Shown here piece after piece: positions 10,509 through 63,393 of a stretch of 64,000 nucleotides of DNA. Position numbers and translations under genes: made by a program. The notes beneath the pieces were generated by a model that was not told the DNA's origin, did no database searches, and saw only the letters and a list, made by a program, of their open reading frames with translations. The DNA is from an uncultured bacterium. Lineage in GTDB: Bacteria; Armatimonadota; Hebobacteria; CAIYQO01. The DNA lies in contig CAIYQO010000229.1 in assembly GCA_903928345.1 (NCBI GenBank), positions 1,351 to 65,350 of the forward strand, read 5' to 3'. The number at the start of each line of letters is the position of its first letter. The first letter of the stretch is position 1.

Positions 10509-12893
10509 CTACACCGCGCCCAACTGCGCAATCGTCACCCCACCCCCGCCTTCGTGGCGTTCGCCGGCGCGGGAGGCGCGGACGACGGGGTGGTGGCGCA
10601 GGACGTCCGCGACGGTGTTGCGCAAGGCGCCGGTGCCGAAGCCGTGGACGATGCGCACGGAGGTGAGGCCCAGGTCGGCGGCGTCGTAGAGGTATTCCTC
10701 CAGCTTTTCGGCGGCTTCCTCGGCGCGCAGGCCGATAAGGTGCAGTTCGGGGTCCACCGGACGCGGCGGCGCGGCGGCGGGGGGCAGCGGGCGGGCGTGG
10801 TCGCTGGGCGGGGCGGCGGGGTCGAGGTCGCGCACGGCAACGTGCACGCGCATGATGCCCACCTGCACGTCCACCTCGTCATCGCCGGCGCCGGCCGCGA
10901 GGGCGATGCCTTTGTGCCCCAGGCCGCGCACGAAGACCGCCTGCCCGGCGGCCACCTGCGTCAAGCCCGGCACGGCGACGAGGGGCGCCACCGCGGCGGG
11001 GGGCAGCGCTTCTTCCACGCGGTCGGTCGCCGCACTCAGCGAGGCGGCGGCGCGTTTGCGCAGCGTGGCGTGTTGCGGTTTTTCAGGCGCCGTGCCGCGC
11101 GTCTCGCGCAGCGCCGTCTTCAACTCGTCCAGGAGGGCGTTCACCTCCTGGCGCGCCTTCTGCAGCACGTCCTGCGCTTCGCGGCGCGCCTTGGAGACGT
11201 TCGTCTCGCGCTTCTCCTCGATCTCCGACAGCTCGTGCTGCAGGCGGGTGGCGGTCTGTTCGGCGTCACGGCGGGCGCGCACGGCGGCGGTGCGTTCGCG
11301 GTCGAGCGCCCGGCGCACCCCCTCGGCCTGTTTCAGCACCTGCTCCATCTCCAGCGGGGCGCTGCCCATCAGGTCGCGCGCTTGCGCCACCAGCGTTTTG
11401 GGCAGGCCCAGCCGCTGGGCGATATAAAAGGCATTCGAACTGCCCGGCAGCCCGGCGATGACGCGGTAGGTGGGCATCAGCGTCTCACGGTCGAACTCCA
11501 CGCTGGCGTTGAGGAAGCCTTCCGCGTTCTGCGCAAAGACCTTCAACTCGCCGTAGTGCGTGGTGACCATCGTGCGGCAGCCGCGCTCCTGCAGCTCGCG
11601 CAGCACCGCCTTCGCCAGCGCCGCGCCCTCCGCGGGGTCGGTGCCGGCGCCGATCTCGTCCATCAGCACCAGCGCGCGCGGCCCGGCCTCCTTGATGATG
11701 TGCACGATATTCGTCATGTGGCCGGAGAAGGTGGACAGGTTTTGCTCGATGGACTGCTCGTCGCCGATATCCACGAAGACCTGCGCGAAGATCGCCAGCT
11801 TGCTCCCCACGTCCGCGGGTACGTGCAGCCCGCTCTGCGCCATGAGGGTAAAGAGCCCGAGGGTTTTGAGCGTCACCGTTTTGCCGCCGGTGTTGGGGCC
11901 GGTGATGACCAGCGTGGTGTTGCCGTCCTCGCCGAGGGCCAGGTCGATGGGCACCGCCTTGGGACCGAGCAGCGGGTGGCGCGCGGCGCGCAGATCGACC
12001 ACGCCGTCGGTGTTGAGCAGCGGCTCCACGGCGTCCTGGGCGCGGGCAAGCAGCGCGCGAGCAATAATCAGGTCGAGCCGCGCCACGGTGTCCAGGCTCT
12101 CCAGCAGGCGCGCGGCAATGCCACCCACCTTGCCGGAGAGGGCCGCGAGCACGCGCTGCACTTCTTCCTCTTCGCGGCGCTCCGCCTCGCGCAGGTCGTT
12201 GCCGCGCTCCACCACCGCCATCGGCTCCATGAAGACGGTCTGCCCGCTGGCGGAGATGTCGTGCACGATGCCGCGGAAGCTGTTGCGGCACTCGGCGCGC
12301 ACCGGCACGCAGAAGCGCCCGTTGCGCTGGGTGATGATCGGCTCCTGCAGCTCCGGCGCGCTCAGCACGTGTTGCAGGTCGCGCTGCAGCTCCTCGTAGA
12401 GCACGCGCACGCGGCGCCGGGCACGTTCCAGCTCCGCGCTGGCGGAGTCGCGCACCTCGCCGCGTTCGGTGATGGCGCGGTCCACCGCCTCTTCCACCGC
12501 GGGGAATTCGCCCAGCAGTTGCCCCTGCGCCCACAGGCGGGGGAAGCCGTCGCCGGCGCGTTGCAGAAAACGGCGTACGCGGCGGCAGCAGGCGGCGGTC
12601 TCCGCCACGTCGAGCAGCTCCGGCGCGGTGAGCACGCCGTGCTTCTCCGCGCGCCGCACGGGGTCGCGCACGTCGTGCAACCCGCCCAGCGGCACATCGC
12701 CCACGTCGCCGATCAGCCGCGTGGCCTCGGTGGTCTCCGCCAACCGCGCCAGCACCACCGCCGGATCGGTAGCGGGCCGCATCCGCCCCACCAGCGCCTG
12801 TCCCAGCGATGACGCGGCATACCCGCGCACCATCTCGCGCACGTCGTCGTAATCCAGAATTGTGTGAATGCGTGTATCCATCGGCAGCATCAT
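10509..12893 (-). CDS. mutS2: Endonuclease MutS2 (MutS domains III-V plus C-terminal Smr domain).
   Basis: Walker A GPNTGGKTVTLKT. MutS ABC signature STFSGHMTNI...VLMDEIGAGTDPAEGAAL. C-terminal Smr domain LHLIGLRAEEAAEKLEEYLYDAADLGLTSVRIVHGFGTGALRN. Confidence 0.9.
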   Translation of the reverse strand: MMLPMDTRIHTILDYDDVREMVRGYAASSLGQALVGRMRPATDPAVVLARLAETTEATRLIGDVGDVPLGGLHDVRDPVRRAEKHGVLTAPELLDVAETAACCRRVRRFLQRAGDGFPRLWAQGQLLGEFPAVEEAVDRAITERGEVRDSASAELERARRRVRVLYEELQRDLQHVLSAPELQEPIITQRNGRFCVPVRAECRNSFRGIVHDISASGQTVFMEPMAVVERGNDLREAERREEEEVQRVLAALSGKVGGIAARLLESLDTVARLDLIIARALLARAQDAVEPLLNTDGVVDLRAARHPLLGPKAVPIDLALGEDGNTTLVITGPNTGGKTVTLKTLGLFTLMAQSGLHVPADVGSKLAIFAQVFVDIGDEQSIEQNLSTFSGHMTNIVHIIKEAGPRALVLMDEIGAGTDPAEGAALAKAVLRELQERGCRTMVTTHYGELKVFAQNAEGFLNASVEFDRETLMPTYRVIAGLPGSSNAFYIAQRLGLPKTLVAQARDLMGSAPLEMEQVLKQAEGVRRALDRERTAAVRARRDAEQTATRLQHELSEIEEKRETNVSKARREAQDVLQKARQEVNALLDELKTALRETRGTAPEKPQHATLRKRAAASLSAATDRVEEALPPAAVAPLVAVPGLTQVAAGQAVFVRGLGHKGIALAAGAGDDEVDVQVGIMRVHVAVRDLDPAAPPSDHARPLPPAAAPPRPVDPELHLIGLRAEEAAEKLEEYLYDAADLGLTSVRIVHGFGTGALRNTVADVLRHHPVVRASRAGERHEGGGGVTIAQLGAV

Positions 12894-12959
12894 TATACGC
12901 CGTTACGGGGGGATTTTCCAGGAAGCGAAGAGGCTTCTGTGCGGATAGCGCCGTGGGGT

Positions 12960-13269
12960 GATAATTCACAGGGATGAAGGGGATGGGAGGGATTTTTGGG
13001 GATGGGGATTTACGTGGGGTAAGGTGGCCAGCACCGTATGGAAGTCCCTAACCAGGCGCCGCCGGGTGTGCAGTGTAAGAAAACAGTGTGTTTTCTTATG
13101 AGCATGACGGCAGTCGCGCGTCCGGGTGGAAATGATTATGCCCATGAGCGATAAAAAAGTGTAGCCGCAGGCTTCAGCCTGCGTTAAGCGCCTGCGCAGG
13201 CTAAAGCCTGCGGCTACACTTTTCCATCCCCAATATCCCCTTTCATCCCTTTCATCCCTGTGAATTATC
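12960..13269. repeat. MITE-like palindromic element (about 310 bp) with roughly 45-bp imperfect terminal inverted repeats (GATAATTCACAGGGATGAAGGGGATGG...) and an internal perfect hairpin.
   Basis: Left end gataattcacagggatgaagggg... matches the reverse complement of the right end ...ccctttcatccctgtgaattatc. Internal hairpin aaaagtgtagccgcaggcttcagcctgcg/cgcaggctaaagcctgcggctacactttt. An internal segment (gacggcagtcgcgcg.ccgg..ggaaatgat..tgccca) recurs at 50271-50345. Confidence 0.8.
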
Positions 13270-13300
13270 AACCCACCGGGTCATCCGAAAACAAACACCC

Positions 13301-15781
13301 TCAACCCGCGTAGGTATCCACCAAACTCCGCACCACCAGTTGCGCCGCTACTTCATCGCGCGTCAGCGGGGTGCGCGGGGTGAGGGTGAGGGTGGCCGGG
13401 GTGCCGGGGCGGACGTGCACGAAGTTGTCGCTGCAGCGCGCTTCGGCGTCGGCGAGTTCCACCCACGTCCACAGCGCGGGGCGGCGGGCGGTGAGGGTGA
13501 CGGTGAAAGTACCGTTGCCGGCGTCGCCCACCGTGGCGGTGAGTTCCGGGTCGGGCAGCGCCAGGTGCTTGGGGCGTGCGAAGAGGGCTACGTTGTCGGC
13601 GACGCGCGCGCCGTCGACGAGCAGCTCCGCCCACACCAGCACGCCGCGCGGGCCGTGGGAGGCGAGGGTGGCGGAGACATCGGCGGTGCCCACGAGGGTG
13701 TTCGCCAGCGGGGCGGCCGCGACGGGCTGCGTGCCGGTGAGCAGCGGGGCGCCGGCCAGGTCGGTCACCGTCCACGCCACCGTGCCGCGTACGACGTCGC
13801 GCCGGTCGTTCGTCACGTGCAGCGCCACGGTGCCGGTGTCGGGGTCTTCCACCAGCGAGAGCAATACCGGGGCGTAGAAGTGCCGCGCCATGTAGTGCAG
13901 CGCTTTCCAGTGGCCGGCGTAGTCCAGCGACGCCCAGCTCGCCACCGGCCAGCAGTCGTTGAGCTGCCAGTACAACGTGCCCATGCCGCGCGGCATCGCC
14001 CGCCGCCAGTGCTCCACCGCGTATTTGATGGCCATCCCTTGCAGAATCTGGCTCAGCCACAGCGTCATGTCGAAGGAGGTGGGCAGGCGGTACCAGTCCA
14101 GCAGGTACGTCATGATAGTGCTGTTGCCGATGCCGCTGCGCTGGTGGTGCTCCATCACGTAGGTGGTCACGTTGCGATCCTCCGGCGCGGTGTAACCGTG
14201 CACCACGCGCGGCTCGGGGAAGGACTGGAAGCCGAACTCGCTGTTGAAGCGGTGCGTGCAGGTGCGGTACCACTCGAAGGGCTTTTTACCGTGCCACACG
14301 TCCCACAGGTGCGCGTCGCCGCGGTCGGGATTGTTGAAGTCGACGCGCCCCTCGCCCGGGGTATGCGGGCTGCACGGCCAGTAGTCGCGGTCGGGGTCGA
14401 GTTCCGTCGTCACGCGCGGCAGCAACTCGTCGAAGAGGCTCTTATACTGCGCCCACGGCATCTGGTTTTCGCCGTCGCCGACCAGCCCCATCTCCAGCTC
14501 GTTGTTGCCGCACCACAGCGCGATGCTCGGGTGGTGGCGCAGGCGGGCGATGTTGTCGCGGAACTCCGCTTCCACGTTCGCCATGAAGTCGGCGTCGAAG
14601 GCGGGGTAGCCGGAGCAGGCGAACATGAAGTCGTGCCACAGCGTAAGGCCCAACTCGTCGCAGAGGTCGTAGAAGGTGTCGGCTTCGTAGATGCCGCCGC
14701 CCCACACGCGCAGCATGTTCATGTTGGCATCCGCCGCGCTGGTGAGGATGTCGCGGTAGGTCTCCGGGGTGATGCGTGTGGCGAAGGTGTCGGTGGGAAT
14801 CCAGTTGGCGCCCTTGGCGAAGAAGGGCACGCCGTTGACGACGAACTGGAAGGATTCCCCCCACTCGTCCGGGTGCCGATCCAGCCGCAACGTGCGCAGG
14901 CCGACGCGGCGGGAGGTGGTGTCGAGGATGTGCGCGTCGGCGAGAAGTTCCACCGTCACCGTATACAACGGTTGCGCACCCAGCGTGTTCGGCCACCAGA
15001 GTTGCGGGTCGGGGATGGACAGCACGGCGTGGGCGGCACCGTCGGCCACCGGGGTGGTCGTTGCCGCCACCGGGAGGCCGTCCAGCGTCACGGTGACGCG
15101 CGCCGTCACGGGGGCCGTTGCGGTGGCGGCGACCTGCAGCGTCACCGCGCCGTCGGCATGCTGCTGCGTAATGTTTACATCGATCAGCCGCGCGCCGTTG
15201 GAAGCGACCAGCGTGATGGGTCGCCAGACCCCGCAGGTCACCAGCACCGGGCCCCAATCCCAGCCGAAGTTGCACGGTTCCTTGCGCAGGTAGCAGCGGC
15301 CTTGCACTTCGTTCGTTCCGTGCCAGCCCGGCACCGGGTGGGCGGCCTGGCGGGTTTCGCAATACGGTTTCGCGGGGGCGAAGGTGACGGTGAGAGTATT
15401 TTCGCCTACGCGTAGGGCGTGGCGCACGTTGAAGGTCCACGTGCGGTACATGTTGTCCGTGCAGCCCAGTTCGATGCCGTTCAACTCGACCGTCGCCAGC
15501 GTGTCCAGCCCGTCGCAGTGCAGCGCGATCGCGTCGCAGGCGAGGAGGGTGTCGGACACATCGAAGGTGCGCGTGTAGACCCACGTCGCCTCGCTCACCC
15601 ACTGCACGCGCGCTTCGTTGTCGCGGTAGAAGGGATCCTCGATGGCGCCCGCGGCGAGCAGATCGGTGTGGATGCACCCCGGCACCTGCGCCGGAAAGGT
15701 TTCCTCCGCCCCCGCGCGCCGCACCGCCCACACCCCGCCCAGTTCCACCGTCATTACCTCGGATACCGCCTGCACCATCGC
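13301..15781 (-). CDS. Glycoside hydrolase family 2, beta-mannosidase-like.
   Basis: NGVPFFAKGANWIP, WCGNNELEMG and NMLRVWGGGIYE motifs typical of GH2 beta-mannosidases. Start chosen at ATG 15781 (RBS GGAGGTGG) rather than the upstream extension to 15883. Confidence 0.8.
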   Translation of the reverse strand, partial: AMVQAVSEVMTVELGGVWAVRRAGAEETFPAQVPGCIHTDLLAAGAIEDPFYRDNEARVQWVSEATWVYTRTFDVSDTLLACDAIALHCDGLDTLATVELNGIELGCTDNMYRTWTFNVRHALRVGENTLTVTFAPAKPYCETRQAAHPVPGWHGTNEVQGRCYLRKEPCNFGWDWGPVLVTCGVWRPITLVASNGARLIDVNITQQHADGAVTLQVAATATAPVTARVTVTLDGLPVAATTTPVADGAAHAVLSIPDPQLWWPNTLGAQPLYTVTVELLADAHILDTTSRRVGLRTLRLDRHPDEWGESFQFVVNGVPFFAKGANWIPTDTFATRITPETYRDILTSAADANMNMLRVWGGGIYEADTFYDLCDELGLTLWHDFMFACSGYPAFDADFMANVEAEFRDNIARLRHHPSIALWCGNNELEMGLVGDGENQMPWAQYKSLFDELLPRVTTELDPDRDYWPCSPHTPGEGRVDFNNPDRGDAHLWDVWHGKKPFEWYRTCTHRFNSEFGFQSFPEPRVVHGYTAPEDRNVTTYVMEHHQRSGIGNSTIMTYLLDWYRLPTSFDMTLWLSQILQGMAIKYAVEHWRRAMPRGMGTLYWQLNDCWPVASWASLDYAGHWKALHYMARHFYAPVLLSLVEDPDTGTVALHVTNDRRDVVRGTVAWTVTDLAGAPLLTGTQPVAAAPLANTLVGTADVSATLASHGPRGVLVWAELLVDGARVADNVALFARPKHLALPDPELTATVGDAGNGTFTVTLTARRPALWTWVELADAEARCSDNFVHVRPGTPATLTLTPRTPLTRDEVAAQLVVRSLVDTYAG

Positions 15782-15847
15782 CCCCACCTCCTGTAAATCC
15801 GCGCTAGTGTACGGCGTTTGACGGAATCGGGCAAGGGGCGGTGAGGG

Positions 15848-15964
15848 AAATGCACAATGGAGAATAGAAAATGGAGAATGCACAATGAGGGAGAAGGAAT
15901 TCTAATAACGCCCTTCCTTTCCCCCCATTCTCAATTCTCCATTTTCAATTTTTCATTGTGCATT
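15848..15964. repeat. AT-rich long hairpin (about 50-bp arms) between folC (3' end) and the GH2 gene (5' end).
   Basis: aaatgcacaatggagaatagaaaatggagaatgcacaatgagggagaagg ... ccttcctttccccccattctcaattctccattttcaatttttcattgtgcattt. The folC stop codon lies in the right arm. Confidence 0.7.
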
Positions 15965-17290
15965 TACCCCTGCCCGTTCCCACCACCGCAACGCTTCGCC
16001 GACGATATACAGCGAGCCGGTGACGCAGATTACGTCTTCGGGGGCGGCGTCGGCCAGGGCGCGGGGGAGGGCGGTGGCGACGTCGGGGGCGGTAATGGTT
16101 GCAGGGTGGGTGGTCGCGGCGGCCAGCTCCGCCGGCGGCACGGCGCGGGGGGCGTTCGAGGTGGTGAGCACCAAGCCCACGGCGCGCGCGGCGAAAAGGG
16201 TGAGCATCTCCGGCCAACTCTTGTCGCGGCTGAACCCGAGCACGAAGCGCACGGGGCGTCCGGGGAAGTGTCGGTCGAGCGCCGCCAGCAGCACCTCCGC
16301 CGCGGCGGTGTTATGCGCGCCGTCCAGCAGCAGCAGCGGGTGTTCGCGCAGCACCTGCATGCGCCCCGGCCACTGCACCGCGGCCAGCCCCTGACGCACG
16401 GCGTTGGGTGAAACGGACACCGTGGTCATCAGCAGCTCCGCCAGCCCGATGGCCACCGCGGCGTTTTCCTGCTGGTGCTCGCCGAGGAGCGGGCAGGTGA
16501 GGTCGCGGTAGGTGTGGCGCACGCCGTGCACGGTGAAGCGTTGCCCGGTCGGCGAGGAAAGGGCGCTCGGTTCCAGCAGAATATCCCGGCCCACGCGCAG
16601 CAGCGGGCTGTCGTGCTCGGTGGCGACGCGCGCGATGACGGCATCCACCGCCGGCTCCTGCGGCGCGCTGACCACCGGCACCCCGGGCTTGATGATGCCT
16701 GCCTTCTCCGCGGCGATGGCCGTCGTGGTGGCGCCCAACTCCGCCACGTGATCCAGCGCGATGCGCGTGATGGCCGTCGCCAGCGGCGTCACCACGTTCG
16801 TCGCGTCCAGCCGCCCGCCCATGCCCGTTTCGAGCACGGTGATGTCCACCCCCTGCCGCGCGAACCACAGGAAGGCCAGAATGGTGATCGCTTCGAAAAA
16901 GGTGATCGTCTCCCCGGTGTCGCGCGCCACGGCGGCGATGACCGGCTGCACCTCACGGGATAGGGCGAGGAATTCCGCTTCGGAGATGAGCGTGTCGTCT
17001 ACGCGCAGGCGTTCGCGTACGGTGACCAGGTGGGGTTTCGTGAACAGCGCCGTGCGCAGCCCGGCGGCACGCAGCATGGCCGCGAGCATGGCGGCGGTGG
17101 ACCCTTTGCCCTTGGTGCCCGCGATGTGCGCCACGCGCAGCGCGCGGTGCGGATCGCCCAGGCGCGCCAGCACGGCATACACGCGGTCCAGGCTCAAGTA
17201 GGTAGCCGTGGGCGCGTGCGCCGGGCGCGCTTCATAATCGGTTAGCGCGGTCAAGTACGTGACCGCGTCGGCAAAGGTATGCACGACCAC
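15953..17290 (-). CDS. folC: Bifunctional folylpolyglutamate synthase/dihydrofolate synthase (Mur ligase family).
   Basis: HIAGTKGKGST P-loop of the Mur ligase family. Length and overall architecture match FolC. Confidence 0.8.
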   Translation of the reverse strand: MVVHTFADAVTYLTALTDYEARPAHAPTATYLSLDRVYAVLARLGDPHRALRVAHIAGTKGKGSTAAMLAAMLRAAGLRTALFTKPHLVTVRERLRVDDTLISEAEFLALSREVQPVIAAVARDTGETITFFEAITILAFLWFARQGVDITVLETGMGGRLDATNVVTPLATAITRIALDHVAELGATTTAIAAEKAGIIKPGVPVVSAPQEPAVDAVIARVATEHDSPLLRVGRDILLEPSALSSPTGQRFTVHGVRHTYRDLTCPLLGEHQQENAAVAIGLAELLMTTVSVSPNAVRQGLAAVQWPGRMQVLREHPLLLLDGAHNTAAAEVLLAALDRHFPGRPVRFVLGFSRDKSWPEMLTLFAARAVGLVLTTSNAPRAVPPAELAAATTHPATITAPDVATALPRALADAAPEDVICVTGSLYIVGEALRWWERAGVNAQ

Positions 17291-20071: not shown

Positions 20072-20263
20072 CCTCTTTGCTTCGGCCCCGGAGGGGCCGC
20101 CCAGGGTGCAAACCCTGGGTGGTGTAATCATCGAATCTTCCGCGCCGAGGCGGGGCGCCGCAAGGCTTCGCGCCGCCCCTCCAGGGCGAATTGGCATTGC
20201 AACAACCCGTATCCCAGGGCTTGCGCCCTGGGCTAAAATACGTTGCCCCTCCGGGGCAAAGGG
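20072..20263. repeat. Nested-palindrome intergenic element (REP/BIME-like) between the mlaE-like gene and murA.
   Basis: Outer IR ctttgcttcggccccggagggg / cccctccggggcaaaggg. Inner hairpins cccagggtgcaaaccctggg and cccagggcttgcgccctggg. Confidence 0.65.
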
Positions 20264-20272
20264 AAACAGCGC

Positions 20273-21559
20273 ATGAGTGATCGCTTGCATATCCGCGGCG
20301 GACGGCCGCTGACCGGGGAAGTGGTGTTGAACGGCAGCAAGAACGGGGCGCTGCCGATTCTCGCCGCGGCGTTGCTGGTGGAAGAGCCGGTGCAGTTGCA
20401 CAACGTACCGCAGATCAGCGACATCGAGAAGATGTGCGAGCTGTTGCGCGGGCAGGGGGCGGTGGTGACGCGCGACGGCGACACGCTGCGCCTCGATGCC
20501 GCCGCGCTCTCCGGCGCCGCCATCGACCGCGATCTCGCCGCCGCCATGCGCGGCTCCTTCTACCTGCTCGGGCCGTTGCTGGCACGCCGCCGCCGGGCGG
20601 AAATCCCCCTGCCGGGCGGGTGCGCCATCGGCAGCCGCCCCGTGGACTACGTCATCCGCGCGCTGGAAGGCCTCGGCGTGGTCACCGAGGAGCGCACCGA
20701 CGTGGTGGTGTGCACCGCCCCCGACGGCCTGCACGGCGCCACGATCACCCTCGACCCCGTCTACCGCAGCCCGGGCGCCACCTTCAACGTAGCGATGGCT
20801 GCCGCGCTGGCCGAGGGGCGCACAGTGATCGAAAACGCCTCCTCCGACCCCGAGGTGGAGAACTTTTGCCGCTTCCTGCAGGCGGCGGGAGTGGGCATCG
20901 AAGGCGAAGGCACCACGCGGCTGGTGATCGAGGGGCAGAAGCGCCTGCATCGCTGCGCGCACACCATCCTCAGCGACCGCATCGAGGCGGGCACCTTCCT
21001 CATCGCCGCCGCCGCCACGCGCGGCGAAGTGCGCGTGCATCCGCTGCGCCCGGCGTACCTGGACAGCCTGCTCGACAAGCTGGAGGAGATGGGCGTCACG
21101 GTCCTGCGTGAGCGCGACGCCATCACCGTGCGCGGCGACGCCCGCCCCACCGGCGCCACCGTCTACACCATGCCGTATCCCGGCTTCCCCACCGACCTGC
21201 AGCCGCCGATGGTGGTGCTCATGTGCCTGGCGGAGGGGCGCAGCGAGATGCGCGAGACGATCTACGACGGTCGCCTCTCCTTCGTGCACGAACTGCGCCG
21301 CATGGGCGCCCAGGTGAAGCTCGCCAGCGGCCAGCACGCGATGATCGAGGGTGTGGACGCGCTGCGCGGGCGCAGCATGGAGGGCAAGGACATGCGCGCC
21401 GGCGCCGCCCTGGTGGTCGCCGCCCTCGCCGCCGAAGGCGACAGCTACATTGCCGGCCGCCACTACATCGTGCGCGGCTACGAACGCCTGGAAGAGAAAC
21501 TCCGCTCCCTCGGGGCGCAGGTGCTGGACGACGAGGACGAGGGCGGGGACGAACAATAA
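20273..21559 (+). CDS. murA: UDP-N-acetylglucosamine 1-carboxyvinyltransferase.
   Basis: MSDRLHIRGGRPLTGEVVLNGSKNGALPILAAALL is the canonical MurA N-terminus. EPSP synthase-like fold, about 428 aa. Confidence 0.9.
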   Translation: MSDRLHIRGGRPLTGEVVLNGSKNGALPILAAALLVEEPVQLHNVPQISDIEKMCELLRGQGAVVTRDGDTLRLDAAALSGAAIDRDLAAAMRGSFYLLGPLLARRRRAEIPLPGGCAIGSRPVDYVIRALEGLGVVTEERTDVVVCTAPDGLHGATITLDPVYRSPGATFNVAMAAALAEGRTVIENASSDPEVENFCRFLQAAGVGIEGEGTTRLVIEGQKRLHRCAHTILSDRIEAGTFLIAAAATRGEVRVHPLRPAYLDSLLDKLEEMGVTVLRERDAITVRGDARPTGATVYTMPYPGFPTDLQPPMVVLMCLAEGRSEMRETIYDGRLSFVHELRRMGAQVKLASGQHAMIEGVDALRGRSMEGKDMRAGAALVVAALAAEGDSYIAGRHYIVRGYERLEEKLRSLGAQVLDDEDEGGDEQ

Positions 21560-36336: not shown

Positions 36337-36400
36337 AAATTGGGGACTGGCTCGAATTTTCACGGTGGATGATAGATGCCCTTTAATTTGTAACTGCTGC

Positions 36401-36573
36401 TATGGTCCGCGGGGTAGCGGCGACTGAAGTCGCAGCTCTTTGGCCTTTCGGCCAACCGTCCGCCTACACGGACGGGAGAAGGAAAAGAATTTACGATGTT
36501 GGTGCATCCCCGCAGGGGGACGCTTGGCCGATGAGGCCAAACAGCTGCGATTTCAATCGCCAGGGTCGTCAAT
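36401..36573. repeat. Palindromic MITE-like element, family ggcgattgaaatcgcagct, copy 1 (between the hydrogenase protease gene and hypA).
   Basis: Internal TIRs gcgactgaagtcgcagctctttggcc / ggccaaacagctgcgatttcaatcgcc. Its reverse complement aligns with the copy at 39268-39444 at both ends. Confidence 0.8.
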
Positions 36574-36700
36574 CGTACCGATAGTCATTTATCAAAGAAC
36601 ATCTATCATCGTTGTAAAGCTGCGACAGGCACACTTGATCCGATCACGAATAGGATGGGCAACAAACTGAGACGCGTCAGTTCTCCTCGTCGGAAAAGTC

Positions 36701-37314: not shown

Positions 37315-37608
37315 ATGGCGATGATGAATAACCTGCCCTCGGTGGCGCGTTGCGACGTGAACGACTGCTTTTACAACCGCGAGAGCAACTGTCACGCGCC
37401 GGCCATCAACATCGGCGGCGAGCACCCCAATTGCGACACCTTCATCCCCACGGCCAACCACATCGGCCGCATGGAGCAGGGCATGGTAGGCGCCTGCCAC
37501 GTGCACCTGTGCAAGTGGAACACCGACCTGACCTGCCAGGCCAGCAACATCGTGGTGGCCCACCACAACCTGCACGCGGACTGCGAAACGTTTACGCCGG
37601 CGAAATAG
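37315..37608 (+). CDS. DUF1540 domain protein (two Cys/His-rich repeats).
   Basis: Two internal repeats each with 4 Cys: CDVNDCFYNRESNCHAPAINIGGEHPNCDTF and CHVHLCKWNTDLTCQASNIVVAHHNLHADCETF. RBS GGGAGG 7 nt before the ATG. Confidence 0.7.
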   Translation: MAMMNNLPSVARCDVNDCFYNRESNCHAPAINIGGEHPNCDTFIPTANHIGRMEQGMVGACHVHLCKWNTDLTCQASNIVVAHHNLHADCETFTPAK

Positions 37609-37624
37609 GGAACAGGAAATAGGA

Positions 37625-37672
37625 AACAGGGAACGGGTTGGTGCGCTGGCACCAACCCGTTCCCTGTTTCCC
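37625..37672. terminator. Bidirectional terminator hairpin between the convergent DUF1540 and tlpA-like genes.
   Basis: aacagggaacgggttggtgc gc tggcaccaacccgttccctgtt gives about a 20-bp perfect stem. Confidence 0.6.
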
Positions 37673-37685
37673 GTTCCCAGTTCCC

Positions 37686-39014: not shown

Positions 39015-39267
39015 ATGACCCCCGTCCTCGGCGAGTCATGGAGCATCGCCGCAGTCACCTCGGTTGTTCCCGCCCCAGAGAGTCGGCAAACGCTCCGTGG
39101 CTATTGCATCAGTATATAGTTATAACTTCAAGTACCCACCATCGCGTGGAAAGAACGGTGGCATCGGTGCAATTCCGTGCGGATGGAGAGCCTGTCGTAG
39201 TATCGCGATATTGAGACATGGACCGATTGATGCTCTTTGATTCATGGGTATCGGTACGTTCTACGTG

Positions 39268-39444
39268 CTTGGCGATTGAAATCGCAGCTAGTTGGCCTCA
39301 TCGGCCAGGCGTCCCCCTACGGGGACGCGGTGGCGGTGAAAAACGTCAACACCCTCTTCCGCATCCCCGTCCGCGGAGGCGGACGGCTGGCGCGGAGTCG
39401 CCGAAGAGCTGCGCCTTCAGTCGCCGCGAACCCGCGAACCATAG
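39268..39444. repeat. Palindromic MITE-like element, same family, copy 2 (between ccdA and the DUF721 gene), inverted relative to copy 1.
   Basis: cttggcgattgaaatcgcagctagttggcctcatcggccaggcgtccccctacgggga...ctgcgccttcagtcgccgcgaacccgcgaaccatag matches the reverse complement of copy 1. Confidence 0.8.
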
Positions 39445-39620
39445 CAGCATTCAGGAATCAAAGAGCATAAATCGGTCAATTCATGCCCCCCTCACCCCAT
39501 TCACCCATTCACCCATTCACCCCGTCACCCCCTCACCCATTCACCCATTCACGCATGTACGCCGCGGCGCACATCCCGCCTCTTGGCAGGGAGCCGCTTG
39601 GCTGGTAGACTGGTTACAGT

Positions 39621-45000: not shown

Positions 45001-45242
45001 GTACTCGTAATCGACCCCCTGCCCCGAAGGGGCGTGCGATTATAGCCACGGGCGGAGCCCGTGGTATGCGGGACAGAAAACGTCCGAGCCCCGACGGGGC
45101 GACAGAACACGTGTCTGCCGCCCCGTCGGGGCTCGGTGTTTCCTCCGTACCCGACCACGGGCTGCGCCCGTGGCTAGCATCTGCGGCCCCTTCGGGGCAA
45201 TAGTCGATTACGAGCACGATTACGAGCACGAGCACGATTCCG
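45001..45242. repeat. Nested-palindrome element, family R2 (gccccgaaggggcg / ccacgggcggagcccgtgg / gagccccgacggggcgacag), copy 1.
   Basis: Outer IR tcgtaatcgac...gccccgaaggggcg / gccccttcggggc...gtcgattacgag. Homologous (about 80%) to 63201-63388. Followed by short tandem cacgattacgagcacgagcacgatt. Confidence 0.8.
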
Positions 45243-48528: not shown

Positions 48529-48824
48529 GAGAACAACCTCCCCGGATCGATAGCCTAACCTTCGTCCCGCGCGGGCAGAGTCCTGCCGACGGTGCTTTTT
48601 AGAGACGCTCCCTGTACGACAAGAACAGCGGAATGCTGGGGCACGGACATGTAATTAATCAATATAACAATAAAACAATATTGCTTATACTTGCAACGCT
48701 GGGATAGGAAAACCGGGGTACAGTCATATCACGCATCGTGCGAGCATCAGAAGAAGCATCTCAGCTACGACACGGCACCCGCATAGCGGCTCTCGCACCG
48801 GGAGTAGACAAGGAGAGCGTGACT

Positions 48825-50156
48825 ATGACACATGCACGGAAGCGGGGAATCTTTTGGGGCGTACTGGGCGTTCTCACGGTACTGTGCCCCCTCTGCCTCT
48901 CCAATGTGCACCGCCTCGCGGCCCAGCCGAGTAGCGATATCAGTCCGCGCTGGCGGATCGCCAATGAACCCCCGGGAAATCCGCAGACGGCCACGGAAGC
49001 GCCGGCCAGCTTTAACCCCAACAATTACAACAATGGCCTGCTGTCCGACACGGATTTCCAGCAGGACAAGGTGTCATTCGAAACCGTCGAAACGGTGGCG
49101 GACGGCCTGGGGCCCACCTATAACGCCACGAGTTGCTGCGAGTGCCACGGCAACGTCATCACGGGCGGCGATAGTCAGGTTACCGAGGTGCGCTCGGTCC
49201 GGCTGACCGCGAAGGGGTACTTTGCCTCGCTGGGGGGTTCGATCATCCAGGCGCGCGCAACCTTTCCCGACATTGTCGAACATGTCGGCCCCACGGACAC
49301 GATCCGCGCCCAACGGAAATCCACGCCGGTCTTGGGCGATGGCTTTGTCGAGTGCATCGCCAATAACACCTTGCTGGCATTGAGCCAGGCTCAACCCGCG
49401 GTCATGCGCGGCCTGCCCGCCATCGTGCCGGTGCTGGAAGCGGACATCACCCCGATGACGATGCAAAACTTCACCCTGAGTAACGCCGTGCGCATCGGGC
49501 GCTTCGGCTGGAAGTGCCAGCACGCCAGCCTGGTGTCCTTTGCCAGCGACGCCTACCTGAACGAGATGGGCATTACCAACCCCCTGTTTCCCACCGAAAA
49601 CCTGTCCGATGGGCGGCTGGTGGACCATACCACCGCATACGATCCGGTGGCGGATCCCGAGGACAACGGCACTGATATCCAGGCCTTCGCGGCCTTCATG
49701 CGCGCGACCGACACGCCCGCGCGGGGTCCCATCACCAGCAGCGTGACGCGCGGGGAAACGCTCTTCACGCAGATCGGCTGCGCCGTCTGCCACACGCCCA
49801 CCATCGTCACTGCCCCCGCCGGCACCCTGATCAACGCGGGCGCCTTCACCGTGCCGACCAGCCTGGGCAACAAGAACATCCACCCCTACAGCGACTTCCT
49901 GCTCCACGACATCGGCACCGGCGATGGCATCCCTATCCAGCCCACGCCCGACTTCACCTACACCGCCAACGTGATGCGCACCGCCCCCCTCTGGGGCCTG
50001 CGCACCCGCAACCGCCTCTTCCACGACGCCCAACCGCTCACCTTAACGGAAGCCATCCAACGCCACAAAGCCCAGGCCCTCGCCGTCGCCGCCAACTACA
50101 ACCGCCTCACCGCCACCCAAAAACAATCCGTGCTGGACTTCCTGAACTCGCTATAG
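48825..50156 (+). CDS. Di-haem cytochrome c peroxidase-like protein (DUF1111 / thiol oxidoreductase family).
   Basis: Signal/TM segment, then two CxxCH haem motifs (CCECH and CAVCH). RBS AAGGAGAG before ATG 48825. Confidence 0.75.
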   Translation: MTHARKRGIFWGVLGVLTVLCPLCLSNVHRLAAQPSSDISPRWRIANEPPGNPQTATEAPASFNPNNYNNGLLSDTDFQQDKVSFETVETVADGLGPTYNATSCCECHGNVITGGDSQVTEVRSVRLTAKGYFASLGGSIIQARATFPDIVEHVGPTDTIRAQRKSTPVLGDGFVECIANNTLLALSQAQPAVMRGLPAIVPVLEADITPMTMQNFTLSNAVRIGRFGWKCQHASLVSFASDAYLNEMGITNPLFPTENLSDGRLVDHTTAYDPVADPEDNGTDIQAFAAFMRATDTPARGPITSSVTRGETLFTQIGCAVCHTPTIVTAPAGTLINAGAFTVPTSLGNKNIHPYSDFLLHDIGTGDGIPIQPTPDFTYTANVMRTAPLWGLRTRNRLFHDAQPLTLTEAIQRHKAQALAVAANYNRLTATQKQSVLDFLNSL

Positions 50157-50188
50157 GATGCCGGAATTTATAGGAACCGTTCCGTAAC

Positions 50189-50217
50189 GGTGACCTCAGC
50201 CCCGGGCTGAGGTCACC
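50189..50217 (+). terminator. Hairpin terminator downstream of the di-haem peroxidase-like gene.
   Basis: ggtgacctcagc cccggg gctgaggtcacc, a perfect 12-bp stem 30 nt after the stop codon. Confidence 0.5.
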
Positions 50218-50605
50218 GCCCGGCTCGACCGCAGACAAGCGTAAGTGGACCAGCACTGTGTGGAAGCTCGACGGCAGTCGCGCGCCCGGCCGGAAATGAT
50301 AGTGCCCAGATCCGACAACATGTTACCGCAGACTTCAGCCTCAGAAAAGATCAGCTGGCCAATTCTGGCCCAACAGTTTACGCGAGAAGGAGGACAAGGA
50401 ATTCGTGCCGATCCTATAGAACTCTACCCAAACCGACAGGCCACGGCGACACCTGCCAGCAGATCAATGCACCAACAGGTCTATGCAGAGATAGACAACT
50501 AATTAAAACGCTATAATTGGTTGTCTTCCCCCAGATTACCTGTTCGAGCGACGTTGTATGCGCCTAAATGGTGCGGTATACCGATCTATTGGAAGGATGG
50601 TACCC

Positions 50606-51664
50606 ATGAACGACATCATTTGTAAGCGTGTAGTAATCTTGTTCCTCTTGTTGTCTCCCATTTTTGCGGCGATGACCTGCGCACAAACGATCGCGTATAG
50701 CCTGGACTCACAAATATGGGGCATGGATATGCACACACGACATAAATTTCTGCTCATCAACCCCCCAGGTGTGCTCCGTGAATCGATTGGCGCTCCCGCA
50801 TGGTTTCCTGACGGGAAAAAGATTGCCGCGGTGATTGATGGAGACATCTGGCTTGCCGATGTCCCGTCCAAACAAAGCCACATACTGGTTCGCGCTGACA
50901 ATAAACCGTGTATTGGCATTCCTGCATGGTCAAAAGATGGGAAGTCGCTGTATGTTGGCCGATTAAAGAATATCGAAAGTGATGGCGATGGTGGGTTGTG
51001 GCAGTTTAATGTGCGGGATGGGAAATCTCATATCGTAATTCAACCAGAAGACGTGGATTTGCCTATACATAATTATCCACTGGTTTCTGCGGACGGTCAT
51101 TATCTGATTTCGAGCGGAATGATAGACGGCGTCGCATCTTTTTACGCCATTGACTTTAAATCGAATACGCCGATAAAACTCCCGAATCAGCAAGTCTCTA
51201 ACTTTGTCACATGCTATGCATTCGATAAATCCTGTAAAATGCTTATTCTCGGAGAATATGCTGGCGATGGCCTGATGGGGAAAGGGCCGGGTGGCGTATG
51301 GCGGTGGGACCTTACCACCAATAGATGCTCGCCATTGTCGTTAAAAGGCCAGTCAATAGAAGAAATGTCTATCAGCCCGAATGGAAAACACATGATAATA
51401 CGTATTCAAAGTATCGTACGAGGAATAGAGAGACAATCGTCCTATCTCGCTACTACAACGGGAACGAAAGTGGCAAAGATCAAAGTGCCCGGCGATATGA
51501 GCCAAATTACCTGGTTGGATAACGACACCTTTGTCGCTGATAATGCACCCACAGGAGATCCAGATCACACGAATATCATTCGTTACAACACACGTACCGG
51601 CAAATCGCGTGTGCTGGTCAAAGGGGGGTATGGTGTCGCAGTCACCGGTGTCCGTGCGCATTGA
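50606..51664 (+). CDS. TolB-like / PD40 (WD40-like) beta-propeller periplasmic protein, encoded in an AT-shifted island.
   Basis: Signal peptide MNDIICKRVVILFLLLSPIFAAMTCA. PD40-like repeats (WFPDGKKIAAV, AWSKDGKSLYV, ISPNGKHMII). Local GC about 47% versus about 68% in the flanks. RBS GGAAGGA. Confidence 0.65.
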   Translation: MNDIICKRVVILFLLLSPIFAAMTCAQTIAYSLDSQIWGMDMHTRHKFLLINPPGVLRESIGAPAWFPDGKKIAAVIDGDIWLADVPSKQSHILVRADNKPCIGIPAWSKDGKSLYVGRLKNIESDGDGGLWQFNVRDGKSHIVIQPEDVDLPIHNYPLVSADGHYLISSGMIDGVASFYAIDFKSNTPIKLPNQQVSNFVTCYAFDKSCKMLILGEYAGDGLMGKGPGGVWRWDLTTNRCSPLSLKGQSIEEMSISPNGKHMIIRIQSIVRGIERQSSYLATTTGTKVAKIKVPGDMSQITWLDNDTFVADNAPTGDPDHTNIIRYNTRTGKSRVLVKGGYGVAVTGVRAH

Positions 51665-51791
51665 AGGCTCATGGGGCATGTCACCACCTACAAACCAAAC
51701 ACAACCACTTATATATTCTTACCCCACAAATGCCACTTTTCCTCACCCCCGCATCGTTGACGCCGCCCGCCCCATCTGCTACGCTACCGGC

Positions 51792-52652
51792 ATGGCGCTG
51801 ACACTCCTGAACGGCATGGCTGACCCCGACTTCCCCACCGCCTTGCGCGTGCATCAGGCGTGGGGGCTGCCCGTGCTGGACTTGAAGGACGGCATCTTCG
51901 GCAAGTACATCCTCGACCTTACCGACGACGAGGCCGCGCGTGCCGCCGACCTGGCCGCCGCCCACGGACTGACCGTCTATTGCCTCTCCACCACCCTCTT
52001 CCACGCCGCGGTGGAGGAGGGCGAGGCGGCCTTCCGCGCGGCGGCGCTGGCACCGGTGGACCGCGCCATCGCCGTGGGGCGCGCGCTGCAACCGCGCCTG
52101 ATTCGCCTGCTGGCGCCGCAGCTCCGCGCCCGCGCCGCGGTGGCCGACGGCGTATCCCACGTGCAGGCGCACCACCCCTGGCTGCTGCCCCTCTACCGCG
52201 AAGCCATCGACCGCCTGCAGGCCGCCGGCTTCCACGTGACCATCGAGAACGAGTGCGGCCAGTGCCTGCTGGGCTGCGCCGACGAAGCGCTGGCCTTTTT
52301 CGCCGCCCTCGACCGCCACAACGTGGGCTTCACCTGGGACATCCAGAACATGTGGGAGGTCGGCGCCGTGCCCACCCTCGACGCCTACACCGCCCTGCGC
52401 CCCCTGCTGGACTACGTGCACCTGAAGGGCGGGCAAAGCGACGGCGGCACCCGCCTGCGCTGGGCGAGCGCGCTGGAGGATGCCTCCTGGCCGGGGCTCG
52501 CCATCACCCGCCGCGTGGTGGCCGACGGCGTCAGCCCGGTGGTCTGCCTCAACCCCTCCCACGGCGCGCGCAAGCCGGGGTACGACTACGCCGACGTGAC
52601 GACGCGCGACCTGGCCTTCCTGCGCCGCGAGATTCCGGAGATCGACCGATGA
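51792..52652 (+). CDS. Sugar phosphate isomerase/epimerase (xylose-isomerase-like TIM barrel). Start uncertain.
   Basis: TIM-barrel family features (...[13 protein letters not shown]...YVHLKGGQ...). The N-terminal part of the ORF (from 51531) runs through the AT-rich junction. I picked ATG 51792, where GC composition returns to the genome average. Confidence 0.6.
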
Positions 52653-53765: not shown

Positions 53766-53928
53766 CGTAAGAAAACCGCAAAGGCGCAAAGGACGCAAAG
53801 GAGACCGCAAAGATATTTTTCGATTTCGCACCGAGAAGGTTGCATTCGGTCACGGCGAACTGCCCAGACCCTACCCTCTTCTCTTTGCACGTCCTTTGTG
53901 TCCTTTGCGTCTTTGCGGTTTTCTTGCG
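53766..53928. repeat. Palindromic element with CGCAAAGG tandem motifs (family R-D), copy 1.
   Basis: gtaagaaaaccgcaaaggcgcaaaggacgcaaaggagaccgcaaag ... ctctttgcacgtcctttgtgtcctttgcgtctttgcggttttcttgc. The arms are inverted. Confidence 0.8.
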
Positions 53929-63200: not shown

Positions 63201-63388
63201 CCCCTTGCCCCGAAGGGGCGCGCGATGCTAGCCACGAGCGGGAGCCCGTGGTCCGACGGCCCGTAAATTCCGAGCCCCGACGGGGCGACAGACGATGTAT
63301 CTGCCGCCCCGTTGGGGGCTCGATTTTCTACGCTACCGGGACCACGGGCTCACGCCCGTGGCTCGCGGGGACGCTCGCCCTCCCAAAG
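63201..63388. repeat. Family R2 element, copy 2, carrying a family R1 terminus (ggctcgcggggacgctcgccctcccaaa) at its 3' end.
   Basis: gccccgaaggggcgcgcgatgctagccacgagcgggagcccgtgg...gagccccgacggggcgacagacg...ctgccgccccgttgggggctcg...ccacgggctcacgcccgtggctcgcggggacgctcgccctcccaaagg. Confidence 0.8.
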
Positions 63389-63393
63389 GAGAA

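What the first reader, a model, noticed from the sequence alone, without database searches (positions are those of the whole stretch)
50160..51700. AT-shifted (about 47% GC) 1.5 kb island encoding a TolB/PD40-like beta-propeller, preceded by a fragment of the 13-kb MITE
Base composition drops sharply after the terminator of the peroxidase-like gene and recovers inside the next ORF. The island encodes a single secreted PD40-repeat protein. Its 5' boundary (50271-50345) contains a segment homologous to the interior of the element at 12960-13269 (gacggcagtcgcgcg.ccgg..ggaaatgat..tgccca ... cttcagcct). The composition and the repeat fragment point to recent horizontal acquisition, possibly mediated by that element.
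Basis: seen in the sequence. Interest (0 to 1): 0.6.

Follow-up and report, generated by a model that had tools for sequence, protein, structure and literature searches.

The report
Horizontally acquired AT-rich propeller gene
A single gene for a secreted beta-propeller protein of unknown function was picked up from an AT-richer source by a GC-rich Armatimonadota bacterium. This is an ordinary small foreign-DNA "islet", and nothing shows that the neighbouring repeat moved it.

Summary
Window 50346-51750 is the lowest-GC stretch of the 64 kb: 0.47-0.48 against 0.66, about 4.8 sd below the mean. It holds one intact gene (50606-51664, 352 aa) for a signal-peptide-bearing PD40-type beta-propeller. 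A ~100-nt repeat copy lies at its 5' side.

Horizontal acquisition is well supported. GC3 is 0.49, against 0.73-0.94 (nearly all 0.80 or above) for the other ~50 ORFs. The amino-acid make-up lies outside the host range. Only 10 relatives exist among 5.8 billion proteins. Each of the five relatives with DNA in hand sits among different neighbours and is 10-22 GC points below its own contig.

The decisive test used a related Armatimonadota genome. Native syntenic genes there are saturated at synonymous sites (MlaE dS 2.7, MurA dS 2.1), while the propeller gene has dS 0.7. The window copy also shows an AT-to-GC excess (29 vs 11, p=0.006), which indicates amelioration.

"Recent" is overstated. "TolB-like" is true of the fold only: 24.6 bits against a 343-bit cutoff, and no N-terminal domain. 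The repeat is one arm of a hairpin repeat family shared among these genomes. It lies on one side only and is absent next to the gene at the other loci read, so repeat-mediated transfer is unsupported. No vector was found.

The parts
50188..50218 (+). Perfect 15-nt-arm hairpin 32 nt after the stop codon of the DHOR gene (48738-50156). It is the likely transcription stop for that gene. This is native DNA and marks the left limit of the intergenic region.
   Evidence: Arms 50188-50202 / 50204-50218 are 100% complementary. No T-run follows it (read from the sequence). GC of 50157-50345 is 0.61.
50245..50341 (+). Single arm of a hairpin-type intergenic repeat family, plus a 3' extension shared with the copy at 13076-13180. 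Core: CCAGCACTGTGTGGAAGC-CGACGSCMGTCGCGC-YCCGGNYGGAAA.
   Evidence: 77% identity over 75 nt to 13106-13180, E 1.7e-10. The 20-mer occurs twice against 0.1 expected. The same module forms perfectly complementary 49-nt arms in L011 at 16186-16234 / 16272-16320. There is no second arm within 50100-50620 or 51650-51850. No Rfam family matches.
50346..50534 (+). Spacer in which GC falls from about 0.55 to 0.44 and which has no detectable relative at the other loci. It contains an AT-rich palindrome (50493-50526) that includes TATAAT. Whether this spacer arrived with the gene cannot be decided.
   Evidence: GC steps. The palindrome is 82% over 34 nt. There is no homology to L001/L004 upstream DNA apart from a short TTAAAACG..TAAAAT stretch in L004.
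50535..50605 (+). Leader of about 70 nt that is conserved with other family loci. Its inferred role is the gene's own promoter/5'UTR and ribosome-binding site (GGAAGGA, 5-11 nt before the ATG).
   Evidence: blastn homology to L001 begins at 50535 and to L004 at 50563. Alignments A3/A6. No conserved RNA structure: 3 pairs, -2.1 kcal/mol. The sigma-70 consensus scan found nothing here, so the promoter role is inference.
50606..51664 (+). Gene for a 352-aa exported PD40-type beta-propeller. The signal peptide is about residues 1-26 (cleavage site TCA|Q, inferred). About seven blades follow directly. There is no other domain.
   Evidence: Pfam PD40 34.1 bits. AlphaFold2 pLDDT 85.3, pTM 0.84, helix 2-21 then all-beta. 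Foldseek gives TolB propellers at E 1e-13 to 1e-14 and S9 peptidase propellers at TMq 0.63-0.67. Codon-position identities of 0.80/0.86/0.62 and dN/dS 0.28 against L001 show a coding sequence under purifying selection. GC3 0.49.
51665..51782 (+). Downstream spacer (GC 0.53) before the native TIM-barrel gene (51783-52652). It has no homology to other family loci or to the repeat element.
   Evidence: Homology to all family loci ends at the stop codon, 51664. Alignment to the 13-kb element is at chance level: 120 of 300 shuffles scored at least as high.
12935..13294 (.). It is a ~360-nt intergenic palindromic element with 71-nt low-complexity terminal inverted repeats and an inner palindrome. 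It carries one diverged copy of the same module at 13076-13180.
   Evidence: Inverted repeats I4 and I18. Folds as one long DNA hairpin, -111 kcal/mol against -56 for shuffles, z -13.7. Lies between two minus-strand genes: MutS2 10509-12893 and GH2 mannosidase 13301-15883. Its terminal repeat matches a palindromic element in L001 at 29/30.

Best explanation
The low-GC tract is a genomic islet. It is a single, self-contained gene (own ~70-nt leader plus coding sequence) that entered this Armatimonadota chromosome by horizontal transfer from an AT-richer source. It landed between the DHOR gene and the TIM-barrel/GFO-IDH-MocA/cupin operon, after this lineage had split from its sampled relatives.

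The gene belongs to a very small accessory family that turns up at unrelated chromosomal positions in several GC-rich genomes and is AT-rich relative to its host at every locus read. Purifying selection has kept it intact (dN/dS about 0.3). It is slowly drifting toward host composition.

The product is exported by a Sec-type signal peptide. It is a stand-alone propeller of about seven blades with no catalytic domain, so it most likely acts as a periplasmic or surface binding scaffold. That function is inferred from the fold only.

The transfer vehicle is not identified. At two other loci the gene lies in a larger AT-rich tract with other exported-protein genes. The single gene here may therefore be what remains of a larger insert.

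Shown: foreign composition, younger age than the host split, directional substitution, lack of synteny. Inferred: donor, vehicle, promoter, protein function.
For: 1. Composition. The lowest 1-kb GC of the window is 0.466, against mean 0.663 and sd 0.041. GC3 is 0.49, against 0.73-0.94 (nearly all 0.80 or above) for the other ~50 ORFs. Raw tetranucleotide distance ranks 1 of 314 (0.68 against 0.27 +/- 0.06). FYMINK is 0.287 (host 0.172 +/- 0.037, maximum 0.250) and GARP is 0.253 (host minimum 0.271).

2. Rarity. There are 10 relatives in 5.8 billion proteins. Only 7 representatives reach E 1e-30 among 1.84 billion. No true member is found in 185,579 species-representative genomes.

3. Context. 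The neighbours differ at every locus. tblastx finds only this gene shared among the contigs. At the window and the five other loci with DNA, the gene is 0.10-0.22 lower in GC than the rest of its contig.

4. Age relative to the hosts. The window's MurA has a 74%-identical orthologue on the same 1.57-Mb contig that carries the closest propeller homologue, and MlaE-MurA synteny is kept. Between these two genomes, MlaE has dS 2.68 and MurA has dS 2.12; their 4-fold-site identity is 0.44 against 0.36 expected at saturation. The propeller gene has dS 0.72; its 4-fold identity is 0.52 against 0.24 expected.

5. Disequilibrium. On the window's branch, polarised with outgroup L014, AT-to-GC changes number 29 and GC-to-AT changes 11 (p=0.006). 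At third positions, unpolarised, the counts are 34 and 12.

6. Independent assemblies reproduce the junctions at two other loci (L002 for L001, L005 for L004).

7. Relatives with the TIM-barrel operon (58-63% identity) keep TIM -> GFO_IDH_MocA (-> cupin), and none has this gene upstream.
Against: - No empty site could be shown. The closest sampled relatives of this organism (MurA 89% and 80%) are known only from short contigs that lack this region.
- No integrase, transposase, tRNA gene or convincing flanking direct repeat marks the edges.
- No plasmid, phage or viral contig carries the family.
- At least one other host is from the same phylum as the window organism (L001, tied by MurA and MlaE-MurA synteny). 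Repeat families shared with L001 and L011 suggest further relatedness. The family could therefore be old within Armatimonadota.
- dS of the native genes is inflated by the GC3 difference between the two genomes (0.91 against 0.61).
- The GC-normalised tetranucleotide signal is lowest at the island (0.38-0.39), but a few native windows come close (0.40-0.43).
- For the window itself there is no second assembly or read-level check.
Confidence: 0.8

Rival explanations
1. Vertical inheritance. The gene was already in the common ancestor of these Armatimonadota and moved only through local rearrangement. Its AT-richness and low synonymous divergence are held by selection on the DNA or mRNA itself.
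For: At least two hosts belong to one phylum and are moderately related (MurA 74%). Three hosts share intergenic repeat families. Protein divergence of the gene (dN 0.20) is similar to that of native genes (dN 0.22-0.24). AT-richness is seen at every locus read.
Against: dS is 0.7 against 2.1-2.7 for syntenic native genes in the same genome pair. The significant AT-to-GC excess on the window branch shows that synonymous sites are not held at low GC. No synteny is seen at any locus. The family is absent from 185,579 species representatives.
Confidence: 0.08
2. The repeat at 50245-50341 is part of a MITE-like element that carried or captured the gene and inserted it here.
For: The repeat copy abuts the start of the GC decline. 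The same module occurs in L011, another genome that has the gene, and there it forms a perfect hairpin as a mobile foldback element would.
Against: The repeat lies on one side only. There is no second arm (296, 180 and 216 of 300 shuffles scored at least as high) and no element match downstream of the gene (120 of 300). The module's own GC is near host level (0.61). In L011 the module lies 5 kb away from the gene, and the flanks read at L001, L004, L012 and L014 show no copy. Homology among loci stops at the leader and at the stop codon. The 13-kb element is not shown to be mobile or multicopy.
Confidence: 0.05
3. Assembly artefact. The low-GC segment comes from another organism and was stitched into this metagenome-assembled contig.
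For: The window comes from a metagenome-derived contig (84.6 kb; NCBI/ENA sources). No second assembly of this locus was found.
Against: An internal 1.4-kb insert would need two chimeric joins. Neither edge is a repeat shared with the other. The same pattern of an AT-rich gene inside GC-rich flanks recurs in five other assemblies from ENA, JGI and Logan, and independent assemblies agree at two of those loci. The window's copy is a distinct, intact family member with a host-ward substitution bias.
Confidence: 0.03
4. Variant of the best explanation. The gene arrived as part of a larger AT-rich multi-gene island, together with a papain-like C39_2 peptidase or other exported-protein genes. Only the propeller gene has survived deletion.
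For: In L011 the low-GC tract also covers an upstream Peptidase_C39_2 gene. In L014 it spans about 4.7 kb with a CsgG-like gene, an FG-GAP-like gene, the propeller gene, a small ORF and a Uma2 gene. On the P0004 contig a 695-aa Peptidase_C39_2 gene is the upstream neighbour, and a HEPN/nucleotidyltransferase pair and a DUF927 gene lie within about 4-5.5 kb downstream.
Against: tblastn finds no remnant of those neighbours in the window's upstream gap or at L001/L004. The partner genes differ between loci, so no fixed module is evident.
Confidence: 0.3

Closest known systems
Genomic islets: small horizontally acquired segments under 10 kb, as defined in the genomic-island review PMC2704930. Amelioration of foreign genes is discussed in PMC8461475.
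   Same: A discrete segment under 10 kb whose GC, codon usage and tetranucleotide usage differ from the chromosome. It carries accessory cargo. Its substitution pattern drifts toward host composition.
   Different: It lacks the optional hallmarks listed for islands: tRNA insertion site, 16-20-bp flanking direct repeats, and integrase or transposase genes. Its absence from close relatives could not be shown.
TolB, the periplasmic Tol-Pal component (C-terminal PD40 beta-propeller)
   Same: Exported protein. PD40-type repeats. TolB propellers are the best structural matches (Foldseek E about 1e-14, TMq about 0.55).
   Different: No N-terminal TolB domain. It fails the TolB equivalog model by more than 300 bits. 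It is not in a tol-pal gene cluster. It has about seven blades by strand count and by the recurring xWSxDG-like motif, whereas TolB has six (the TolB blade number is from my own knowledge). Sequence identity is 13-20%.
Propeller domains of S9 prolyl oligopeptidase / DPP-IV family peptidases
   Same: These give the highest structural overlap (TMq 0.63-0.67). There are weak DPPIV_N and Peptidase_S9_N profile hits.
   Different: There is no alpha/beta-hydrolase catalytic domain. The protein is a propeller alone.
REP / MITE-like palindromic intergenic repeats
   Same: The module at 50245-50341 is a short non-coding repeat found in intergenic DNA of several genomes. It can form a perfect long hairpin (L011).
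   Different: Here only one arm is present. No target-site duplication, high copy number or mobility has been shown. No Rfam family matches.

Membership tests
PD40 / WD40-like beta-propeller repeat superfamily (Pfam PF07676) | Score above Pfam's gathering threshold for the PD40 repeat | tested here: met
   34.1 bits against a cutoff of 20.9, E 2.6e-8.
PD40 / WD40-like beta-propeller repeat superfamily (Pfam PF07676) | All-beta propeller fold built from four-stranded blades | tested here: met
   AlphaFold2 model with pLDDT 85.3 and pTM 0.84. About 27 strands fall into about 7 blades. The top Foldseek matches are all propellers.
TolB (Tol-Pal system) | Reaches the NCBIfam equivalog model TIGR02800 cutoff | tested here: not met
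   24.6 bits against a cutoff of 343.15.
TolB (Tol-Pal system) | N-terminal alpha/beta TolB domain ahead of the propeller | tested here: not met
   Strands of the first blade begin at residue 28, directly after the signal helix. No TolB_N Pfam hit.
TolB (Tol-Pal system) | Gene located in a tolQRA-tolB-pal cluster | tested here: not met
   The neighbours are a DHOR di-haem oxidoreductase and a xylose-isomerase-like TIM barrel. Family loci elsewhere have no tol-pal genes among their neighbours either.
Genomic island / islet (criteria of PMC2704930) | [quoted passage not shown] | tested here: met
Genomic island / islet (criteria of PMC2704930) | Size: island 10-200 kb, islet under 10 kb | tested here: met
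   The low-GC tract is about 1.3-1.45 kb, so it is an islet and not an island.
Genomic island / islet (criteria of PMC2704930) | Detected by comparison among closely related strains (present in one, absent in another) | not testable with these tools
   No close relative with this region is sampled. The best flanking-gene homologue is 63% identical. Relatives with MurA at 89% and 80% are known only from short contigs.
Genomic island / islet (criteria of PMC2704930) | Insertion at a tRNA gene | tested here: not met
   ARAGORN finds no tRNA or tmRNA gene in the 64-kb window.
Genomic island / islet (criteria of PMC2704930) | Flanked by 16-20-bp (near-)perfect direct repeats | tested here: not met
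   The only repeat that straddles the tract is a 13-nt one (50128 / 51871). Both copies lie inside native coding sequence. A repeat this long occurs in 0.8% of equivalent placements in the window.
Genomic island / islet (criteria of PMC2704930) | Carries integrase, transposase or conjugation genes | tested here: not met
   The tract holds one gene. The flanking genes are metabolic.
MITE (for the repeat at 50245-50341 and the 13-kb element) | Terminal inverted repeats at both ends of the copy | tested here: not met
   The 13-kb element has 71-nt terminal inverted repeats. The island copy has neither those repeats nor a second arm.
MITE (for the repeat at 50245-50341 and the 13-kb element) | Many copies per genome with target-site duplications | tested here: inconclusive
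   There are two copies in 64 kb and copies in L011. The rest of the source genome could not be scanned. No target-site duplication was identified.
Integron gene cassette | An imperfect-palindrome attC site downstream of a promoterless ORF, in a cassette array near intI | tested here: not met
   There is no palindrome and no conserved sequence after the stop codon. The gene carries a conserved upstream leader. The neighbours are ordinary chromosomal genes.

The most novel reading that the evidence does not exclude
The family is a minimal, autonomous 'hopping gene'. Under this reading, a ~1.13-kb unit made only of a conserved leader and a secreted-propeller ORF moves between Armatimonadota chromosomes by an unrecognised mechanism. 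It would leave no integrase, no repeats and no vector behind, and it would stay AT-rich wherever it lands, possibly because AT-richness is part of how it is recognised or regulated.
Probability: 0.06. Interest if true: 0.55.

Novelty: new member of a known kind. Interest (0 to 1): 0.2.

Why it matters
It matters little beyond this genome. It is a clean, quantitatively supported case of single-gene horizontal acquisition in Armatimonadota, a poorly sampled phylum. It defines a very small accessory family of exported propellers whose members are compositionally foreign wherever they have been read. It also shows that a flanking repeat, tempting as a vehicle, carries no evidential weight here. 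The practical value is for annotation: the gene should not be named TolB, and the repeat should not be called a MITE-borne insertion.

Tried and rejected
1. Island inserted into a copy of the 13-kb element. The downstream flank 51665-51800 aligns to the element at chance level (120 of 300 shuffles). An eye-caught CACTTTTCC match was not significant.

2. Second arm of the hairpin near the island. None found.

3. Structured RNA in the repeat or in the leader. Rfam gave nothing at gathering thresholds and only microRNA-type hairpin noise at permissive E-values. The leader has no conserved structure.

4. Decayed partner genes (C39_2 peptidase, CsgG-like, FG-GAP-like) in the window's upstream gap. 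No tblastn signal.

5. The 85-aa ORF at 50245-50502. It has no Pfam hit. Its only similarity is to the repeat copy at 13 kb, so I treat it as spurious.

6. Empty-site test.
- A metagenome-contig scan with the flanking TIM-barrel protein found at best 41% identity.
- The protein database gave at best 63%.
- Those relatives keep only the downstream operon.
- Exact-sequence look-ups of the window's own DHOR and PD40 proteins found no contig.

7. Vectors. There were no matches in plasmid, phage or IMG/VR collections or in PHROGs.

8. Flanking 13-nt direct repeat CCGTGCTGGACTT (50128 / 51871). It is nominally rare (0.8% of placements), but both copies encode xVLDx inside native genes, so I reject it as an insertion junction.

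9. Sigma-70 consensus scan. There is no promoter call upstream of the gene, and hit counts equal the shuffled expectation.

10. The afdb50 fold library was unavailable.

11. The species-representative genome scan returned only two weak partial matches: L006 from Armatimonadota and L007 from Acidiferrales.
Full report
OBSERVATION

The window has 0.663 GC. Its 1-kb windows have mean 0.663 and sd 0.041, and the lowest of all (0.466) starts at 50501. The figure of 47% fits the ORF (0.476) and 50346-51664 (0.478).

The fall is not immediately after the hairpin at 50188-50218. The stretch 50157-50345, which holds that hairpin and the repeat copy, is still 0.61 GC. GC declines through 50300-50450 and recovers at 51725-51775, just ahead of the next gene's ATG at 51783.

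The tract contains one long ORF, 50606-51664 on the plus strand, 352 aa. It has a PD40 Pfam hit above threshold. The upstream gene is a DHOR di-haem oxidoreductase (putative peroxidase). The downstream gene is a xylose-isomerase-like TIM barrel.

The similarity to the 13-kb region is real. It is 77% over 75 nt (E 1.7e-10), with a collinear weaker piece upstream. A 20-mer is shared exactly twice in the window against 0.1 expected.

THE PROTEIN

The start at 50606 is supported by the family alignment, in which all members begin MKxIIFKRVLFLL.... A purine-rich ribosome-binding site precedes it.

The AlphaFold2 model is confident (pLDDT 85.3, pTM 0.84). It has one N-terminal helix (residues 2-21, the signal peptide), followed only by beta-strands that group into about seven blades. 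This matches seven recurrences of an xWSxDG-like motif that can be read directly in the sequence.

The best structural matches are TolB C-terminal propellers (E about 1e-14, TMq about 0.55) and the propellers of S9 peptidases (TMq 0.63-0.67).

It is not TolB. The TolB equivalog model gives 24.6 bits against a cutoff of 343. There is no TolB N-terminal domain. There are no tol-pal neighbours.

No catalytic domain is present. I infer an exported binding scaffold, but the function is not established.

THE FAMILY

Only 10 relatives were found among 5.8 billion proteins, at 38-66% identity. An exhaustive profile search of 1.84 billion cluster representatives found 7 at or below E 1e-30, followed by a steep fall into generic PD40 proteins. 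One of the seven (P0011, 866 aa) has the propeller at the end of a longer TPR-containing protein. No true member is present in 185,579 species-representative genomes.

EVIDENCE THAT THE GENE IS FOREIGN

1. Composition. GC3 is 0.49, against 0.73-0.94 (nearly all 0.80 or above) for the other ~50 ORFs in the window. GC1 and GC2 are also low. The protein is enriched in AT-codon amino acids beyond the range of 17 host proteins: FYMINK is 0.287 against a host maximum of 0.250, and GARP is 0.253 against a host minimum of 0.271.

Raw tetranucleotide distance from the rest of the window ranks first of 314 windows. The GC-normalised signature is also lowest there, though a few native windows come close.

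2. Context. Every homologue with a known contig has different neighbours. tblastx finds no other gene shared among these contigs. At the window and the five other loci with DNA, the gene is 0.10-0.22 lower in GC than the rest of its contig.

3. Age relative to the hosts. The window gene 20243-21559 is MurA, and every named top hit is from Armatimonadota. One hit at 74% identity lies on a contig of 1,570,132 bases, which is the same ENA record that carries the closest propeller homologue (L001). MlaE-MurA synteny is kept there.

For this one pair of genomes the figures are as follows:

| Gene | dS | 4-fold-site identity | Expected at saturation | dN |
|---|---|---|---|---|
| MlaE (native) | 2.68 | 0.44 | 0.36 | 0.235 |
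| MurA (native) | 2.12 | 0.44 | 0.36 | 0.221 |
| Propeller gene | 0.72 | 0.52 | 0.24 | 0.203 |

The two propeller copies therefore share an ancestor far more recent than the two genomes do.

4. Disequilibrium. With L014 as outgroup, the window's branch carries 29 AT-to-GC against 11 GC-to-AT changes (p=0.006). Unpolarised third positions give 34 against 12. This is what amelioration of an AT-rich import in a GC-rich genome predicts. It argues against AT-richness being held by selection.

The shift achieved is small. I estimate it at roughly an eighth to a quarter of the way from the inferred ancestral GC3 to the host GC3. With dS of 0.7 to the nearest relative as well, the acquisition is not recent in absolute terms. 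dN/dS of 0.28-0.46 shows a functional but fast-evolving gene.

EDGES AND THE REPEAT

Nucleotide homology to the other family loci starts about 70 nt before the ATG (50535 for L001, 50563 for L004) and ends exactly at the stop codon. The leader is conserved in sequence but has no conserved RNA structure. I read it as the gene's own expression signals, which is an inference.

Beyond these limits nothing aligns. With neutral divergence at this level, that does not fix the original insert boundaries.

The repeat at 50245-50341 is one arm of a hairpin repeat. In L011, a different organism that also has the gene, the same ~49-nt sequence occurs as two perfectly complementary arms, 5 kb away from the gene. 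The island copy matches that arm 18/18 at its 5' end, where the 13-kb copy has diverged. It is therefore an independent copy and not a piece of the 13-kb element.

The 13-kb element itself (12935-13294) is a long palindromic intergenic element (z -13.7 for folding). Its terminal repeats match a palindromic element in L001 at 29/30. These genomes therefore share families of intergenic palindromes.

Nothing links the repeat to the gene's arrival:
- There is no second arm and no match downstream.
- There is no copy next to the gene at the other loci read.
- The module's GC is near host level.

No tRNA gene, mobility gene or credible flanking direct repeat is present. No plasmid, phage or viral contig carries the family.

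HOW IT MOST LIKELY CAME ABOUT

A self-contained gene, possibly the survivor of a larger AT-rich insert, integrated upstream of the conserved TIM-barrel / GFO-IDH-MocA / cupin operon after this lineage separated from its sampled relatives. At L011 and L014 the low-GC tract also covers neighbouring exported-protein genes, and two loci have a papain-like C39_2 peptidase gene directly upstream. The operon's conservation is shown. The gene has been kept by selection and is slowly ameliorating.

The donor and the vehicle are unknown. Transfer among Armatimonadota, or from a common AT-richer source, is the simplest reading.

An empty site in a close relative would be the decisive proof. It could not be obtained, because no sufficiently close genome with this region is sampled.

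VERDICT

This is a real but ordinary genomic islet that encodes a new, very small subfamily of exported PD40 propellers. 'Recent', 'TolB-like' (beyond the fold) and 'mediated by the MITE' do not.

Noticed in passing
L011 16186-16320; window 50245-50302 and 13076-13145; L001 16955-17090; window 12935-13294: Three different organisms share families of intergenic palindromic repeats. The first is a ~49-nt module that forms a perfect hairpin in L011 and occurs as single arms in the window. The second is a low-complexity GGGATGAAGGGGATGG-type terminal repeat, shared 29/30 between the window's 13-kb element and a palindromic element in L001. They may be a lineage-wide REP/MITE-like system in Armatimonadota.
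   Followed up: partly
window 36371-36607 and 39225-39473: Long inverted repeats (arms of 104 nt and 74 nt, 82-84% complementary) bracket about 2.6 kb that holds four small genes. Windows at 37.2-37.4 kb show the largest raw tetranucleotide deviation outside the windows that overlap or abut the island. This could be a repeat-flanked cassette.
   Followed up: no
window 20213-20258: An Acido-Lenti-1 RNA (RF01687) hit scores 47.3 bits against a gathering score of 37. It ends 14 nt before the likely murA start (20273) in an Armatimonadota genome, within a run of CCCAGGG..CCCTGGG-type hairpins. The motif is not found upstream of murA in the related genome L019.
   Followed up: partly
L011 10001-11091: The L011 copy of the propeller gene appears frameshifted or truncated. 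The called product stops at 10882, but homology continues to about 11091 in another frame. Its branch shows the opposite substitution bias (GC-to-AT 17 against 5). Its GC3 is 0.30, inside a 0.33-0.39 GC tract in a 0.58 GC contig.
   Followed up: partly
L011 301-3344 and 6295-9340: A tandem-like duplication of a 909-aa unknown protein plus the start of the Peptidase_C39_2 gene (74-97% amino-acid identity) lies upstream of the propeller gene. Most genes on this contig have no Pfam hit.
   Followed up: no
window 50128-50140 and 51871-51883: A perfect 13-nt direct repeat CCGTGCTGGACTT straddles the island, and both copies lie inside the native flanking genes (each encoding xVLDx). A repeat this long arises in only 0.8% of equivalent placements in the window, but it cannot be an insertion junction.
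   Followed up: yes
window 53766-53928, 15845-15968, 37608-37685, 45020-45199, 63205-63390: Many intergenic regions of this genome hold long hairpins built from short degenerate repeats or GC-rich palindromes (for example CGCAAAGGACGCAAAGGA, GGGAACAGGAAATAGG, GGGAGGGCGAGCGTCCCCGCGAGCC). Several of these are shared between distant intergenic sites in the window.
   Followed up: no
window 2315-2552 and 5768-6005: A 238-nt inverted repeat at 76% complementarity has arms 3.2 kb apart. The arms fall in two oppositely oriented ORFs of similar size (1398-2561 on the minus strand, 5756-6811 on the plus strand), so these are probably diverged paralogues.
   Followed up: no
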